Under the pieces are notes generated by a model. That model saw only the letters and a program-made list of their open reading frames with translations, did no database searches and was not told the origin of the DNA. Below, piece after piece: positions 8,128-12,209 of a DNA stretch of 64,000 nt. Both the position numbers and the translations under genes were made by a program. This stretch comes from Candidatus Heimdallarchaeota archaeon (lineage in GTDB: Archaea > Asgardarchaeota > Heimdallarchaeia > JABLTI01). The DNA lies in the NCBI GenBank assembly GCA_018238155.1, contig JABCTZ010000022.1, positions 56,385 to 120,384 of the forward strand, given 5' to 3'. Position 1 is the first letter of the stretch. Every line of letters begins with the position of its first letter.

Positions 8128-8800
8128 TCATAAATCTGCATAACTCATATCTTCTCCTAGTCCTTCTATTGGTCTTGCATACAGTTTTGTAGTAGATGGT
8201 GACTTGTGCCTCGCTAATCGAGAAGCATTAATTGAATCACGATATTTATCTAAAACTTGTGAAATATAATATCGCCTGAGTTGATGAGCAGTCAAAACCT
8301 TTCGTTTTGGATACTCTTTTGGTAAAAATTTGTTGATTTTTGTTATCTGATATGCTAAAGTATCATAACTACCAACAAGATGTTTAATTTTTGTTATGCC
8401 TTGCTTCCGTAAATTTGTAATCAAATCGTGTAATGGTTTATTGATTGCAATTGCTCTCATAGATTCCTCAGATTTTGGTGTCCAAAAACCAGCATAACGT
8501 TTCTTATGTCGTTTTTTTGCTTGTTTTTGATTGTCTTTGTATTCATATTCTTGCCAATAGTAACATTTTCTTCGTTTACAATGACTACAAGAACACTTCA
8601 CAGGCGATAGTTTAATTGAACCATATTTGCCCCCACCATCAATAATATGTTTGTCAAAATCAAAGTGGTACATCTCAGATAATCTTAAACCTGAAAATGC
8701 AAACATCTTCAAAAATAGTAAACTCTTTTCAAATCGTTTTGGTTGTTCTTCTACTAACTCTTCTAATTCTTTTATTACTAAATGTAATTTGCCAAATTGA
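8128..8800 (-). CDS. Tyrosine recombinase catalytic domain (N-terminus apparently deleted)
   Basis: SGLRLSE (R), WTPKS (K), AHQLRRYY (HxxR), ARHKS (H) and TTKLYAR (Y). The frame is open to about 8800, with the first start at TTG 8712. No core-binding domain. Confidence 0.85.
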
Positions 8801-9209
8801 ACCTAAACCAGCTGGTGCATCAAAAATTACATACTCTGCTGTTAATTCTGAATGGTTGATAATATCAGCAACAAATTGCGACATACTTTCCCCAACGACT
8901 GACTTAACTGAACCCACCAACATTGAAGTACATATTACTTCAATCGGATTTGCTTCTGTATTATGCACCCAAATGAAAGGTAATATTTTTCCGCCATCAG
9001 AAATTTGCATAAAATTTTCCTTGAAGGAATTCCCAGAAAATTCTGAATAACTTGAACTTGAAATATCTAAATCTATGTAAGCTACCCTATGTGTTTTTGA
9101 TAATTCTTTGGCAAGTAACATCGCAAAAGTGGTTTATCAAGTGAATTAACTCAAGAGTTAATACAATACCTGAACCACCTTTGATAGATGCGTTTATCAC
9201 TGATTTCAT
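8729..9209 (-). CDS. ParA/MinD/Mrp-family ATPase with a 31-nt intron; C-terminally truncated
   Basis: join(9209..9167, 9135..8729) gives MKSVINASIKGGSGKTTFAMLLAKELSKTHRVAYIDLD...EYVIFDAPAG (deviant Walker A, A' and B motifs). The ATG overlaps the upstream stop (TAATG). Confidence 0.88.
9136..9166 (-). other. Bulge-helix-bulge (tRNA-endonuclease type) intron, 31 nt
   Basis: 10-bp exon stem, CAGG/CUUG central helix, UAU and AUA bulges, intron hairpin. Canonical cleavage restores the frame and the Walker A lysine. Confidence 0.88.
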
Positions 9210-10477
9210 TACTCATCCTCTTCCACTATCAAATCTTCATAATTGATTTGTTGTTGAAATATTTCCCGCGTTTCATTATGAACTGGTGGTGGTGGTATAT
9301 CTACATGCGGTCGTGGATTTGTCAACACCTCAAATTCACGTGTCTTAGCATCTTGATTGACATTAGATTGACCAATTCTACTATCCTTGGGCATAGGTCT
9401 ATCAGTTATCGTCTGTATTAGTTGAGTCCCTACCCCTCGGTCAATGGCTTTATCTAAGAGCTTCATACCATCAGTTGAAAATGATTGACTTGCTTGAACC
9501 TTTACTTCAGCTAAACGTGCATCAAAAAGCCTATTTTCGAGAGCTTTAATCTCCGCATCTTTTTCTTTAAGTTCAGATTTATGCTCTCGTTTAATATCTT
9601 TTAATTCCTCTTCGATACGTTCAACTTTCTTTTTGTATTCTTCTGCTTGATACTGTGCTACGTCGATTTGTCCATCTTTATCATCTAATTGCTCATCAAA
9701 TCGTTCTTGTATTTTTTCCCATTCTCTTTCTTTTTCTTTATATTCCATATCCAGTTCGTATTTTTTATAAAATTCTGTAAAGTTTTGTGGTTTTGTTTCT
9801 TGAACAGAATGTCTAGAGAATCTTCTATCATCTACTGAATGTTTATTATCACCATAGTAATTAAATAACGCATCATCATATGCATCAATGATTTGTCTTA
9901 TTTTACCCTTACTTTTCGTTCCTGCATCCCAGATTTCAAAATAATGCCTCACTTCTTTACTATCCAATAGTTCTCTATTTTGTTCAGATTTTCTACTGAC
10001 ATCTTGAATGAATTTCTTATTACACCCATAATCAGTTAAAACTTCTCGAAGAATTTCTGTGTGGATTTGGTATTTTTGTAATACAGGTGGTTCTTTTCTC
10101 TGTGTGTAAACAGGTTCCTCATCATCATATTCATCTTCATGATCATCTTCAAAATAATTTTCAACTTCTCGACGAGTTTGTGGTCGTTCTTTTTCCAGTA
10201 ATGGCACTTTATCTTCTATATCTTCGTTTAATTCCTCTTCCAATTCAGCAATTCTTTCCGCTTTTTTCACTTGTGAATCAAAACTTTGTTCTTGTTCTTC
10301 TTCTTGGTCAAAAGAAAGAATAATCATTTCATCAGTTATTTGTGGGCTAAAACGATGGTTGGCAATTTTTGTAAATTTCTTCCCACAGGATAAACATTCT
10401 GCCCAAGTTTCAGAACTTGTAGTCCATTGAAACTTTGTTTCTTCATTACATTCAGTACATATTGAATTTGTTGTCAT
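9209..10477 (-). CDS. Zinc-ribbon plus coiled-coil hypothetical protein
   Basis: N-terminal CTEC...CLSC, acidic linker, long heptad-rich C-terminal half; first gene of the ATPase operon. Confidence 0.75.
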   Translation of the reverse strand: MTTNSICTECNEETKFQWTTSSETWAECLSCGKKFTKIANHRFSPQITDEMIILSFDQEEEQEQSFDSQVKKAERIAELEEELNEDIEDKVPLLEKERPQTRREVENYFEDDHEDEYDDEEPVYTQRKEPPVLQKYQIHTEILREVLTDYGCNKKFIQDVSRKSEQNRELLDSKEVRHYFEIWDAGTKSKGKIRQIIDAYDDALFNYYGDNKHSVDDRRFSRHSVQETKPQNFTEFYKKYELDMEYKEKEREWEKIQERFDEQLDDKDGQIDVAQYQAEEYKKKVERIEEELKDIKREHKSELKEKDAEIKALENRLFDARLAEVKVQASQSFSTDGMKLLDKAIDRGVGTQLIQTITDRPMPKDSRIGQSNVNQDAKTREFEVLTNPRPHVDIPPPPVHNETREIFQQQINYEDLIVEEDE

Positions 10478-10653
10478 ATCATAAACTCCTCTTCAAATAT
10501 ATTGGGTGTTGGATTATAAGCTCCCAAAGCACTCCGAAAGAGCTAGAAAAGCATTATATTAATGTACAGAAAAACAAAGATATTCTTAACTGTTGCGTAC
10601 ATCATATATGATTTTATTATGGAAAATATGAAAAAAGTATACAAATTGATTTC

Positions 10654-11069: not shown

Positions 11070-12209
11070 TCATGCCATATAAAATAATGCGGAAGTATTT
11101 CCGTCGAATTCTTGGGGTTTATCAAAATTTCCATCAAAAGGAGGGGACGTATATGGAAAGGCTTTAAAAGCAAAAGTGAAAACAGTTTCCATTGAAGTAG
11201 TTGCACTGCTCTTGTACTGTAAAAGCCAAGCAAATTCTAAGAAGTAATATGTCCAAAAACCATTTTGTTTATCAGGAAAACCATATCCAACACCCTTTTC
11301 AGTACATGTGGTAGTGCAATAAACACGAGCATTATTACCCATATTCATCAAGTCAGATCCAAAGCCACCTGAACGGCAATGGTCCAGAAAGACGAAAATT
11401 CTTGCTGCTAATGCATTCTCAAGTATTGCTGTAAGTTCCGTATCATAAAAATTACCATTTTCACCATTTTCTCCAGAATCACAGTCCCAAGCACATATGT
11501 AGGATGACCCTATACCATCACCACTACCATGTCCAGAGGATATAAAAGCAATAATGTCATTGTCATCAGCCATGTTGACCATATTGGTTAGAGCTTGTTT
11601 GATATTGTATTCAGTTGCTTTACCATCATATTTTGGATAGTTTGACGCGTTACTATCACCATAGACCCAAATGTGATCATAATCCATCTGAGCTCCTGAC
11701 AGGTGATTATACCAATCTGTAGCATCTTCATCACAGAAACTAAGATCCCCGCCAACTTTATAATCGGAGATTCCAACAATGACTGCAAATCTCATACTAT
11801 GACCTACAACGTTAACAGTAACTTGATTAACAGCATAATTACCAGCAGCATCAAACGCAATAGCTGTTAGAAGGTGGGTTCCATCATTGACCGAAAAACC
11901 GGCATTCATAATATCGTATGATTTTTCATAAGGAGCAGTATTGTCATAGCCGAGATTAAAACTACCTAAAGCAAAAGACACTCTTGTTACGCCAACGTTA
12001 TCATTTGCATTTGCTCGAACAGTAAATGCACCAGATATTGTTGCACCCGTAGAATGGCTAGTAATTGCTACTGTTGGAGGAGTAGTATCAGCGGGAGGAG
12101 GATCTGGACCTGGAACAAATCCAAAACCCAGAGCGTTTGATATTGGCATCAAGAAAAAGCTCAATCCAAAAAATATCAATAATAATTTTTTTAAAAATCG
12201 TTTTTTCAT
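11070..12209 (-). CDS. Secreted caspase-family (C14, metacaspase-like) peptidase with an Ig-like domain
   Basis: Signal peptide, DTTPPTVAIT Ig-like domain, FAVIVGISDY, SSGHG and LDHCRSG His/Cys dyad. Confidence 0.85.
   Translation of the reverse strand: MKKRFLKKLLLIFFGLSFFLMPISNALGFGFVPGPDPPPADTTPPTVAITSHSTGATISGAFTVRANANDNVGVTRVSFALGSFNLGYDNTAPYEKSYDIMNAGFSVNDGTHLLTAIAFDAAGNYAVNQVTVNVVGHSMRFAVIVGISDYKVGGDLSFCDEDATDWYNHLSGAQMDYDHIWVYGDSNASNYPKYDGKATEYNIKQALTNMVNMADDNDIIAFISSGHGSGDGIGSSYICAWDCDSGENGENGNFYDTELTAILENALAARIFVFLDHCRSGGFGSDLMNMGNNARVYCTTTCTEKGVGYGFPDKQNGFWTYYFLEFAWLLQYKSSATTSMETVFTFAFKAFPYTSPPFDGNFDKPQEFDGNTSALFYMA

What the first reader, a model, noticed from the sequence alone, without database searches (positions are those of the whole stretch)
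9125..9182. tRNA-type bulge-helix-bulge intron inside the Walker A motif of a protein-coding gene
Seen: the minus-strand RNA reads AAAGGUGGUU-CAGG-UA^U-UGUAUUAACUC-UU-GAGUUAAUUCA-CUUG-AU^A-AACCACUUUU. The exon flanks form a 10-bp stem. CAGG pairs with CUUG as a 4-bp helix, each strand has a 3-nt bulge 3' of that helix, and the intron closes a hairpin. Cutting after the second nucleotide of each bulge removes exactly 9166..9136 (31 nt) and gives MKSVINASIKGGSG-K-TTFAMLLAKEL..., a complete ParA/MinD/Mrp deviant Walker A. Unspliced, the frame shifts and soon stops. The junction deduced from protein homology and the one predicted by the BHB rule coincide, and it splits the catalytic Lys codon. Established: the archaeal EndA endonuclease and RtcB ligase splice BHB introns in tRNA and rRNA; mRNA cases are rare (crenarchaeal cbf5 is the classic one). 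Inference: pre-mRNA splicing in an Asgard mobile element, which would make the ATPase dependent on host EndA. Gene callers would miss such introns. Caveat: this gene copy looks 3'-truncated, so it may no longer be expressed. I cannot verify novelty without a search.
Basis: partly seen in the sequence, partly recalled or inferred. Interest (0 to 1): 0.96.

Follow-up and report, generated by a model that had tools for sequence, protein, structure and literature searches.

The report
tRNA-type intron in ATPase gene
A 31-base insert shaped exactly like this archaeon's own tRNA introns splits the key lysine codon of an ATPase gene on an integrated mobile element; this would be a rare protein-gene intron cut out by the tRNA-splicing enzymes, but no RNA data exist and this gene copy is truncated.

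Summary
On the minus strand, 31 nt (9166..9136) interrupt the Walker A Lys codon of an Mrp/NUBPL-type (ParA-superfamily) ATPase gene. Unspliced, the frame stops after 40 codons. Removing the 31 nt gives ...KGGSGKTTF..., which aligns without a gap to every homologue found. About ten related loci, two of them in the same genus, all lack the insert.

The RNA can form a canonical hBHBh' motif: an 11-bp outer helix, a 4-bp central helix, two 3-nt bulges and a 24-nt hairpin. The rule-predicted cuts fall exactly at the homology-defined junction. Six 31-nt tRNA introns of the same genome have the same build. The genome encodes an alpha/beta EndA pair and RtcB.

Most likely (about 0.72) this is a recently gained BHB intron in an mRNA of an integrated element in an Asgard archaeon.

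Weak points:
- No RNA run is available.
- There is one occurrence only, so covariation cannot be tested.
- This copy has lost ATPase residues 134-417 and the start of the next gene in a deletion of about 1.06 kb.

The published coding-region precedent is crenarchaeal cbf5. This scan has already noted similar mRNA introns in other Asgard and DPANN genomes, so this is a new member of a known kind.

The parts
9209..10477 (-). Upstream 422-aa gene (zinc ribbon plus acidic coiled coil). Its stop overlaps the ATPase start codon (TAATG), so the two genes are probably co-transcribed.
   Evidence: ORF list. The homologous 418-aa gene sits directly upstream of the ATPase gene in L008. It has a weak Zn_Ribbon_TF hit.
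9167..9209 (-). Exon 1: MKSVINASIKGGSG plus the first base (A) of the Walker A Lys codon.
9136..9166 (-). 31-nt BHB-type intron: 1 nt of the 5' bulge, a 24-nt hairpin, the 4-nt 3' strand of the central helix (CUUG) and 2 nt of the 3' bulge.
   Evidence: It is a clean 31-nt gap against four intron-less relatives in an automatic alignment. It has the same build as six 31-nt tRNA introns of this genome. It is unique within the genome and across the 83 genomes of the class.
9124..9183 (-). Complete hBHBh' motif: outer helix 9183..9173 with 9134..9124, central helix 9172..9169 with 9141..9138, bulges 9168..9166 and 9137..9135, and predicted cuts at 9167|9166 and 9136|9135.
   Evidence: Folding and energy evaluation; pair counts.
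8729..9135 (-). Exon 2: the last two bases of the Lys codon, then TTFAMLLAKEL... Homology to the family ends near residue 133 (about 8790). Twenty unrelated codons and a stop follow.
   Evidence: phmmer hits P0002, P0003 and P0004; alignment; tblastn.
8789..8790 (.). Deletion junction. About 1.06 kb present in the syntenic element L008 is missing here: ATPase residues 134-417, the spacer and the first 25 or so codons of the recombinase gene.
   Evidence: Synteny and translations. A sediment-metagenome contig is identical over 8755-8789 and then continues with different sequence that extends the recombinase frame.
8128..8789 (-). Short tyrosine recombinase gene lacking its start. It is homologous to the 234-aa recombinase that follows the ATPase gene in L008.
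   Evidence: PF00589, E 1.8e-12 for the L008 homologue.

Best explanation
The 31 nt are a bulge-helix-bulge (tRNA-type) intron within the coding region of an Mrp/NUBPL-type P-loop ATPase gene. The gene belongs to an integrated plasmid- or virus-like element in an Asgard archaeon.

Proposed mechanism (inferred, not shown): in the transcript, the two halves of the Walker A coding sequence pair, because the KGG and TTF codons are reverse complements. Exon CAGG pairs with intron CUUG, and the intron closes a 24-nt hairpin. This presents two 3-nt bulges 4 bp apart. The host (alpha-beta)2 splicing endonuclease cuts after the second base of each bulge. RtcB then joins the exons, restoring GGT-AAA-ACC (G-K-T) and the reading frame, and releases a 31-nt intron that is probably circularised.

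The intron is a recent gain of this one lineage. Related elements have the empty site, and some already carry the stem-loop that supplies half of the motif. In the assembled copy a later deletion of about 1.06 kb removed two thirds of the gene. Here the intron therefore sits in a gene remnant, while an undeleted variant appears to exist in nature.
For: 1. The insert is defined independently of any fold. The spliced protein aligns without a gap across the junction with P0002, P0003 and P0004. MAFFT places a single 31-nt gap exactly at GGTA|AA against L008, L024, L025 and L026.
2. The BHB cut rule gives the same two positions. No other 31-nt excision gives GGT AAA ACC; this follows directly from the sequence.
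3. The geometry and cut rule were checked on the genome's own tRNA-Pro(GGG), Pro(UGG), Arg(UCU) and Tyr(GUA) introns. Six 31-nt tRNA introns share the 1+24+4+2 layout. 31 nt is the modal tRNA-intron length reported by ARAGORN.
4. Chance is low: 1.4e-5 to 2e-3 for random 31-mers at this site.
5. The motif is the strongest of 118 strong motifs in the genome.
6. It works only in the sense RNA, because it relies on G-U pairs.
7. The enzymes are encoded: a catalytic alpha EndA (best PDB matches 2cv8_A and 3p1z_B), a divergent second EndA paralog that I read as lacking the catalytic His and that matches the N. equitans EndA-complex chain NEQ261 (beta-like), and RtcB. This fits the (alpha-beta)2 type reported for Asgard archaea (PMC5829648).
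8. The 134 codons after the intron are free of stops in a 32% GC genome, so the frame was kept until recently.
Against: - There is no transcript evidence.
- It is a single occurrence: none of about ten family loci carries an insert, so covariation cannot be tested.
- The gene is truncated in this assembly, so nothing selects for splicing now.
- The strictly canonical fold is 1.3 kcal/mol above the MFE and makes up about 4% of the computed ensemble. The MFE of the tRNA-Pro control does not show its BHB either.
- BHB-like motifs are common by chance: 65 in a shuffled genome at the strong threshold.
- A genome-wide test for motifs that join open frames showed no enrichment over mock excisions.
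- No read data cover the 31 nt.
Confidence: 0.72

Rival explanations
1. A hairpin-forming insertion arose by chance as part of the decay of a dead gene. It resembles a BHB by accident and was never spliced in a working gene.
For: The gene is truncated. The insert is unique and no donor was found. BHB-like motifs are frequent by chance. The ORF-joining screen showed no excess.
Against: The cuts coincide exactly with the homology junction, at p about 1e-5 to 2e-3. The layout is identical to the genome's 31-nt tRNA introns. The insertion is clean, with no duplication or loss of flanking bases. The remaining 134 codons are intact. The deletion looks recent, because a variant 100% identical up to the breakpoint lacks it. 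EndA recognises shape alone, so even then the transcript should be cut.
Confidence: 0.15
2. It is an EndA cleavage site that serves regulation or mRNA turnover rather than productive splicing. Examples would be control of the ATPase level, or release of a small circular RNA with a role of its own.
For: The motif is a good EndA substrate on paper. Haloferax has a BHB intron in the 5' UTR of HVO_1309 that affects expression (PMC7714728).
Against: The excision restores the frame and the catalytic motif exactly, which pure degradation does not require. The 31-nt RNA has no relative anywhere searched.
Confidence: 0.06
3. An assembly or sequencing artefact introduced the 31 nt.
For: The genome is a 46-contig draft assembly with 5.9% contamination. 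No reads covering the site could be examined.
Against: Artefacts do not create a novel hairpin with a 4-nt complement to the flanking exon and the layout of the host's tRNA introns.
Confidence: 0.03
4. Translational recoding: ribosomes hop or bypass across the 31 nt, as in phage T4 gene 60.
For: There is a hairpin directly after a Gly codon and a frame that needs repair.
Against: There is no matching landing codon: the take-off codon would be GGT, and no GGN lies at the 3' end of the insert. No stop codon follows the take-off site. The structure fits the BHB rule far better.
Confidence: 0.02

Closest known systems
BHB intron in the cbf5 pre-mRNA of Crenarchaeota (Watanabe 2002; Yokobori 2009, PMC2738675)
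   Same: It is a short ORF-less intron (cbf5 introns are 16-44 bp) inside a coding region. It interrupts the codon of a catalytic residue and is removed by the tRNA splicing endonuclease in a host with a heterotetrameric EndA.
   Different: cbf5 is a conserved housekeeping gene whose intron is inherited across two orders, and its splicing was shown experimentally. Here the gene belongs to a mobile element of an Asgard archaeon. The intron occurs in one copy only, relatives have the empty site, splicing is not shown and the copy is truncated.
[quoted passage not shown]
   Same: The length (31 nt), the layout (1 + 24-nt hairpin + 4 + 2), the bulge size, the cut positions and presumably the enzymes are the same.
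   Different: The host RNA is an mRNA. The outer helix is 11 bp of coding sequence rather than a 5-bp anticodon stem. No sequence similarity to any tRNA intron was found. The preprint reports no mRNA case.
BHB intron in the 5' UTR of HVO_1309 mRNA, Haloferax volcanii (PMC7714728)
   Same: It is an mRNA substrate of the archaeal splicing endonuclease.
   Different: That intron lies in the untranslated leader and does not interrupt a codon. It has been verified in vivo and in vitro.
Putative 12-bp 'introns' inserted into genes of an archaeal virus (Peng et al., as cited in PMC2738675)
   Same: These are short insertions that appear in protein-coding genes of an archaeal mobile genetic element.
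   Different: They are 12 bp long, preserve the frame, have no demonstrated BHB and were not shown to be spliced. The present insert shifts the frame and has a full BHB.

Membership tests
Archaeal bulge-helix-bulge (hBHBh') intron | Two 3-nt bulges on opposite strands separated by a 4-bp helix | tested here: met
   The central helix CAGG/CUUG has 4 of 4 pairs (one G-U). The bulges are UAU and AUA. The geometry was calibrated on the genome's tRNA introns.
Archaeal bulge-helix-bulge (hBHBh') intron | Flanking helices h and h' of at least 2 bp on either side | tested here: met
   The outer helix has 11 bp. The inner helix has 2 bp, then a U-U mismatch, then 7 bp plus a terminal C-G that would leave only a 2-nt loop.
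Archaeal bulge-helix-bulge (hBHBh') intron | Cuts after the second bulge nucleotide give a functional ligated product | tested here: met
   The product restores KGGSGKTTF and aligns without a gap to intron-less homologues.
Archaeal bulge-helix-bulge (hBHBh') intron | The host encodes the splicing endonuclease and an RtcB-type ligase | tested here: met
   PF01974 is found twice (93 and 65 bits) and PF01139 once (573 bits).
Archaeal bulge-helix-bulge (hBHBh') intron | Splicing is observed in RNA (exon junction, excised or circular intron) | not testable with these tools
   No RNA run was listed. The two DNA runs do not cover the site.
Archaeal bulge-helix-bulge (hBHBh') intron | The motif is conserved, with compensatory changes, in related intron-bearing copies | tested here: inconclusive
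   No other intron-bearing copy was found: 83 genomes of the class, 1.84 billion protein representatives, and genome and metagenome contig scans.
Mrp/NBP35/NUBPL-type P-loop ATPase (ParA/MinD superfamily, PF10609) | Deviant Walker A, KGGxGK[ST] | tested here: met
   It is present only after the 31 nt are removed. The homologue P0002 matches PF10609 with E 5e-41, and L026 with E 1e-27.
Mrp/NBP35/NUBPL-type P-loop ATPase (ParA/MinD superfamily, PF10609) | A complete NTPase domain (about 230 aa) plus the family's C-terminal domain (about 410 aa in total) | tested here: not met
   The window copy ends homology at about residue 133. The 130-aa fragment alone gives no Pfam hit.

The most novel reading that the evidence does not exclude
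This is a freshly gained mRNA intron caught next to its empty site. The Walker A coding sequence of this element family is a natural palindrome (the KGG and TTF codons are reverse complements), and in intron-less relatives it already forms a 9/10-bp stem with a 7-nt loop. The intron landed between loop positions 6 and 7 and brought the 4-nt complement of the loop.

That would support arrival of BHB introns guided by RNA structure, for example by reversal of the endonuclease/ligase reaction followed by copying back into DNA. Such a route could reach any transcript that mimics an anticodon arm, including mRNAs of mobile elements. The mobile elements could then carry such introns between hosts.
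Probability: 0.15. Interest if true: 0.85.

Novelty: new member of a known kind. Interest (0 to 1): 0.6.

Why it matters
In the papers I could search, introns in archaeal protein-coding sequences that are removed by the tRNA-splicing enzymes are documented only for cbf5, plus one 5'-UTR case.

A case in an Asgard archaeon, the closest prokaryotic relatives of eukaryotes, and on a mobile element matters in three ways:
- Gene callers miss such genes.
- Protein expression can depend on EndA and RtcB.
- These mini-introns can colonise mRNAs.

This insert is also young. Related elements show the exact empty site, and the site supplies half of the splicing motif by itself. That makes it a concrete test object for the open question of how BHB introns arrive, which the 2026 Asgard tRNA-intron preprint leaves unresolved.

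Its weight is limited by the missing RNA evidence, the single occurrence and the truncated gene.

Tried and rejected
- RNA evidence: no RNA holder was listed for the locus.
- DNA reads: the two sediment runs with a small share of the words cover only 8602-8789 and parts of 9758-10500, not the intron.
- Intron donor: blastn-short of the intron against the genome gave only 16-nt and 14-nt matches. These lie at window 57068 and 15353, have no hairpin context and are chance. A pattern search with up to 3 mismatches across the 83 genomes of the class found only the window itself.
- Intron-bearing homologues: none in the protein representatives, genome contigs, viral contigs, metagenome contigs or the class genomes.
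- Word-based protein search: it found only the window's own fragment.
- Genome-wide BHB scans:
  - Minimal motifs are abundant (14,718).
  - A test for motifs (L 22-45) that join open frames showed no excess over mock excisions shifted by 1-2 nt (239 against 229-253).
  - The top candidates are adjacent genes (hydantoinase A/B-like on C1; a gene start on C8) or low-complexity sequence.
  - C24:14219-14253 lies in a continuous ORF.
  - In-frame strong motifs need no splicing.
- Anticodon-loop likeness: the 7-nt loop CAGGUAA resembles a tRNA-Thr(GGU) anticodon loop. I rejected this as meaningful, because any hBHBh' intron leaves a 7-nt loop and the genome's tRNA-Thr(GGU) has no intron.
- Taxonomy: the Atlas look-up of RtcB was uninformative.
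- Pfam: the 130-aa fragment alone gave nothing.

Full report
**What is in the sequence.** On the minus strand an ORF starts at 9209, and its start codon overlaps the stop of a 422-aa upstream gene (TAATG). It reads MKSVINASIKGGSG and then runs into 31 nt (9166..9136). After these the frame is shifted and closes after 40 codons (ORF 9209..9087). Removing exactly these 31 nt gives a 150-codon frame, MKSVINASIKGGSGKTTFAMLLAKEL..., with the Lys codon split A|AA. No neighbouring 31-nt excision gives GGT AAA ACC; this can be read directly from the sequence.

**The insert is defined by homology, independently of any fold.**
- An exhaustive phmmer search with the 134 residues after the insert found three relatives among 1.84 billion representatives: P0002 (417 aa, 53% identity), P0003 (62 aa, 75%) and P0004 (409 aa, 35%).
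- All three carry an uninterrupted KGGxGK[ST] motif, and the spliced product aligns to them without a gap across the junction.
- P0002 matches PF10609 (NUBPL/Mrp-type P-loop NTPase, ParA/MinD superfamily) with E 5e-41 over its first 230 residues, and it has a further C-terminal domain of about 180 aa.
- Further members came from genome and metagenome contig scans and from the 83 genomes of the class: L008 = L009 (genome G081, same genus), L011 (G076, same genus), L024, L025, L026 (the closest, 64% identity), L028 and L029. None has an insert at Walker A.
- An automatic DNA alignment places one 31-nt gap exactly at GGTA|AA, with no duplicated or missing flanking base.

**The fold.**
- The outer helix has 11 bp (9183..9173 with 9134..9124).
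- Exon CAGG pairs with intron CUUG.
- The bulges are UA^U and AU^A.
- The rest of the intron is a 24-nt hairpin in which 9 of the first 10 positions pair.
- I checked the geometry and the cut rule (after the second bulge nucleotide) on the genome's own tRNA-Pro(GGG), Pro(UGG), Arg(UCU) and Tyr(GUA) genes, where the rule reproduces the 37/38 splice sites.
- The MFE of the 78-nt region is -25.9 kcal/mol, z = -5.0. It is a register variant. The strictly canonical BHB lies 1.3 kcal/mol higher and makes up about 4% of the computed ensemble. The MFE of the tRNA-Pro precursor does not show its BHB either, so this is not a serious objection.
- The structure persists in a 241-nt context. It cannot form in the antisense RNA, because two G-U pairs become A-C.

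**Chance.**
- Random 31-mers placed at this site give a minimal BHB with cuts at the insert's ends in 0.2% of trials. They also give a hairpin this good in 1.4e-5 of trials.
- The motif alone proves little. At a strong threshold the genome has 118 such motifs against 65 in a shuffled genome, although this one is the strongest.
- A screen for motifs that join open frames showed no excess over mock excisions.
- The other top candidates turned out to be adjacent genes, in-frame sequence or low complexity.
- The argument therefore rests on two independent definitions of the same 31 nt coinciding.

**Fit to the host.**
- ARAGORN finds introns in 13 of the 25 tRNA genes it detects, most often 31 nt long.
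- Six of these (Pro-GGG, Pro-UGG, Ala-UGC, Ala-GGC, Ser-UGA, Ile-GAU) have the same layout as the insert: one bulge nucleotide, a 24-nt hairpin, the 4-nt strand of the central helix and two bulge nucleotides.
- The genome encodes two EndA paralogs and RtcB. One paralog has the catalytic residues and is closest to crenarchaeal catalytic subunits (2cv8_A, 3p1z_B). The other is divergent, appears by my reading of its sequence to lack the catalytic His, and matches the N. equitans EndA-complex chain NEQ261, which from recall is the structural beta subunit.
- This fits the (alpha-beta)2 enzyme reported for Asgard archaea (PMC5829648).
- The genome has two ESCRT-II (EAP30) genes above the Pfam cut-off. 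This agrees with earlier notes of this scan that call it a Heimdall-group Asgard archaeon. I did not verify the lineage further. The public record of its congener G081 is labelled 'Ca. Bathyarchaeia' by its submitters.

**The element and the truncation.**
- L008 is collinear with the window over at least 11 kb: a 418-aa zinc-ribbon/coiled-coil gene, the 417-aa ATPase, a 234-aa short tyrosine recombinase (PF00589, E 1.8e-12), an FN3 protein and small ORFs.
- Only 3 of the 11 genomes of the genus carry this ATPase, which fits a mobile element.
- In the window, homology to the ATPase ends near residue 133, and the recombinase frame begins about 25 codons into the gene. About 1.06 kb has therefore been deleted, at 8790|8789.
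- A low-depth contig from a sediment metagenome is identical to 8755-8789 and then continues with other sequence that extends the recombinase frame. A second contig is identical over 8602-8781. An undeleted variant of the same element therefore appears to exist, and the deletion is recent or possibly an assembly join.
- The copy assembled here cannot make a complete ATPase.

**A gain, with the empty site visible.**
- The insert's sequence occurs nowhere else in the genome or in the 83 genomes of the class, so no donor is known. This agrees with the 2026 preprint's finding that Asgard tRNA introns rarely form sequence families.
- The intron-less relatives L008, L024 and L025 have AAAGGTGGTT-C(A/T)GGTAA-ATCCACTTTT at the site. 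This is a 9/10-bp stem with a 7-nt loop, because the KGG and TTF codons are reverse complements.
- Other members use other codons and pair at only 4-6 of the 10 positions.
- The target thus supplied the outer helix and one strand of the central helix. The intron supplied the other strand.
- Any hBHBh' intron leaves a 7-nt loop, so I do not treat the anticodon-arm likeness as independent evidence.

**Comparison with what is known.**
- In the library I could search, coding-region BHB introns are documented for crenarchaeal cbf5 only. Those introns are 16-44 bp and also split a catalytic codon (PMC2738675). There is in addition one 5'-UTR case in Haloferax (PMC7714728).
- Searches for Asgard cases found only tRNA and rRNA work.
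- This scan has, however, already noted BHB introns in protein genes of other Asgard and DPANN genomes, several of them 31 nt long and conserved with compensatory changes. I did not re-test those notes.

**Verdict.** I put about 0.72 on a true EndA/RtcB-type mRNA intron. The main rival, at 0.15, is a look-alike insertion in a decaying gene. It is a new member of a known kind. It is of particular interest as a young gain on a mobile element, and it is limited by the absence of RNA data, its single occurrence and the truncated host gene.

Noticed in passing
window 8789/8790: This is the breakpoint of a deletion of about 1.06 kb that fuses the ATPase remnant to a recombinase gene lacking its start. 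A sediment-metagenome contig is identical up to 8789 and then differs, so an undeleted variant seems to exist.
   Followed up: partly
L008:6027-6053, L024:3027-3053, L025:3027-3053: Intron-less relatives already form a 9/10-bp stem with a 7-nt loop over the Walker A codons. Other family members with different codon choices do not.
   Followed up: partly
whole genome (G000): ARAGORN detects only 25 tRNA genes. Thirteen have introns, most often 31 nt long with a common 1+24+4+2 layout. Many tRNA genes are presumably missed because they carry several or non-canonical introns, as earlier notes of this scan say.
   Followed up: partly
L008 (DATKZI010000032.1) = G081:C32: The public record is labelled 'Candidatus Bathyarchaeia archaeon'. 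The genome table nevertheless places it in the same genus as the window's genome, which carries ESCRT-II genes typical of Asgard archaea. The label may be wrong.
   Followed up: no
L005:948-1236: In this metagenome contig the ATPase gene stops after residue 62 and the downstream sequence is unrelated to the full-length relative L026. The gene may be disrupted or the contig chimeric.
   Followed up: no
G000:C1:57688-57709: Two long ORFs (705 and 547 codons, hydantoinase/oxoprolinase A- and B-like by eye) could be joined in frame by removing a weak 22-nt BHB-like motif. I take them to be two adjacent genes, but this was not tested by homology.
   Followed up: no
window 11070-12209 (-): A secreted-looking protein has a Big_7 Ig-like domain followed by a caspase (Peptidase_C14) domain. 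It lies within the block that is collinear with the related element L008.
   Followed up: no
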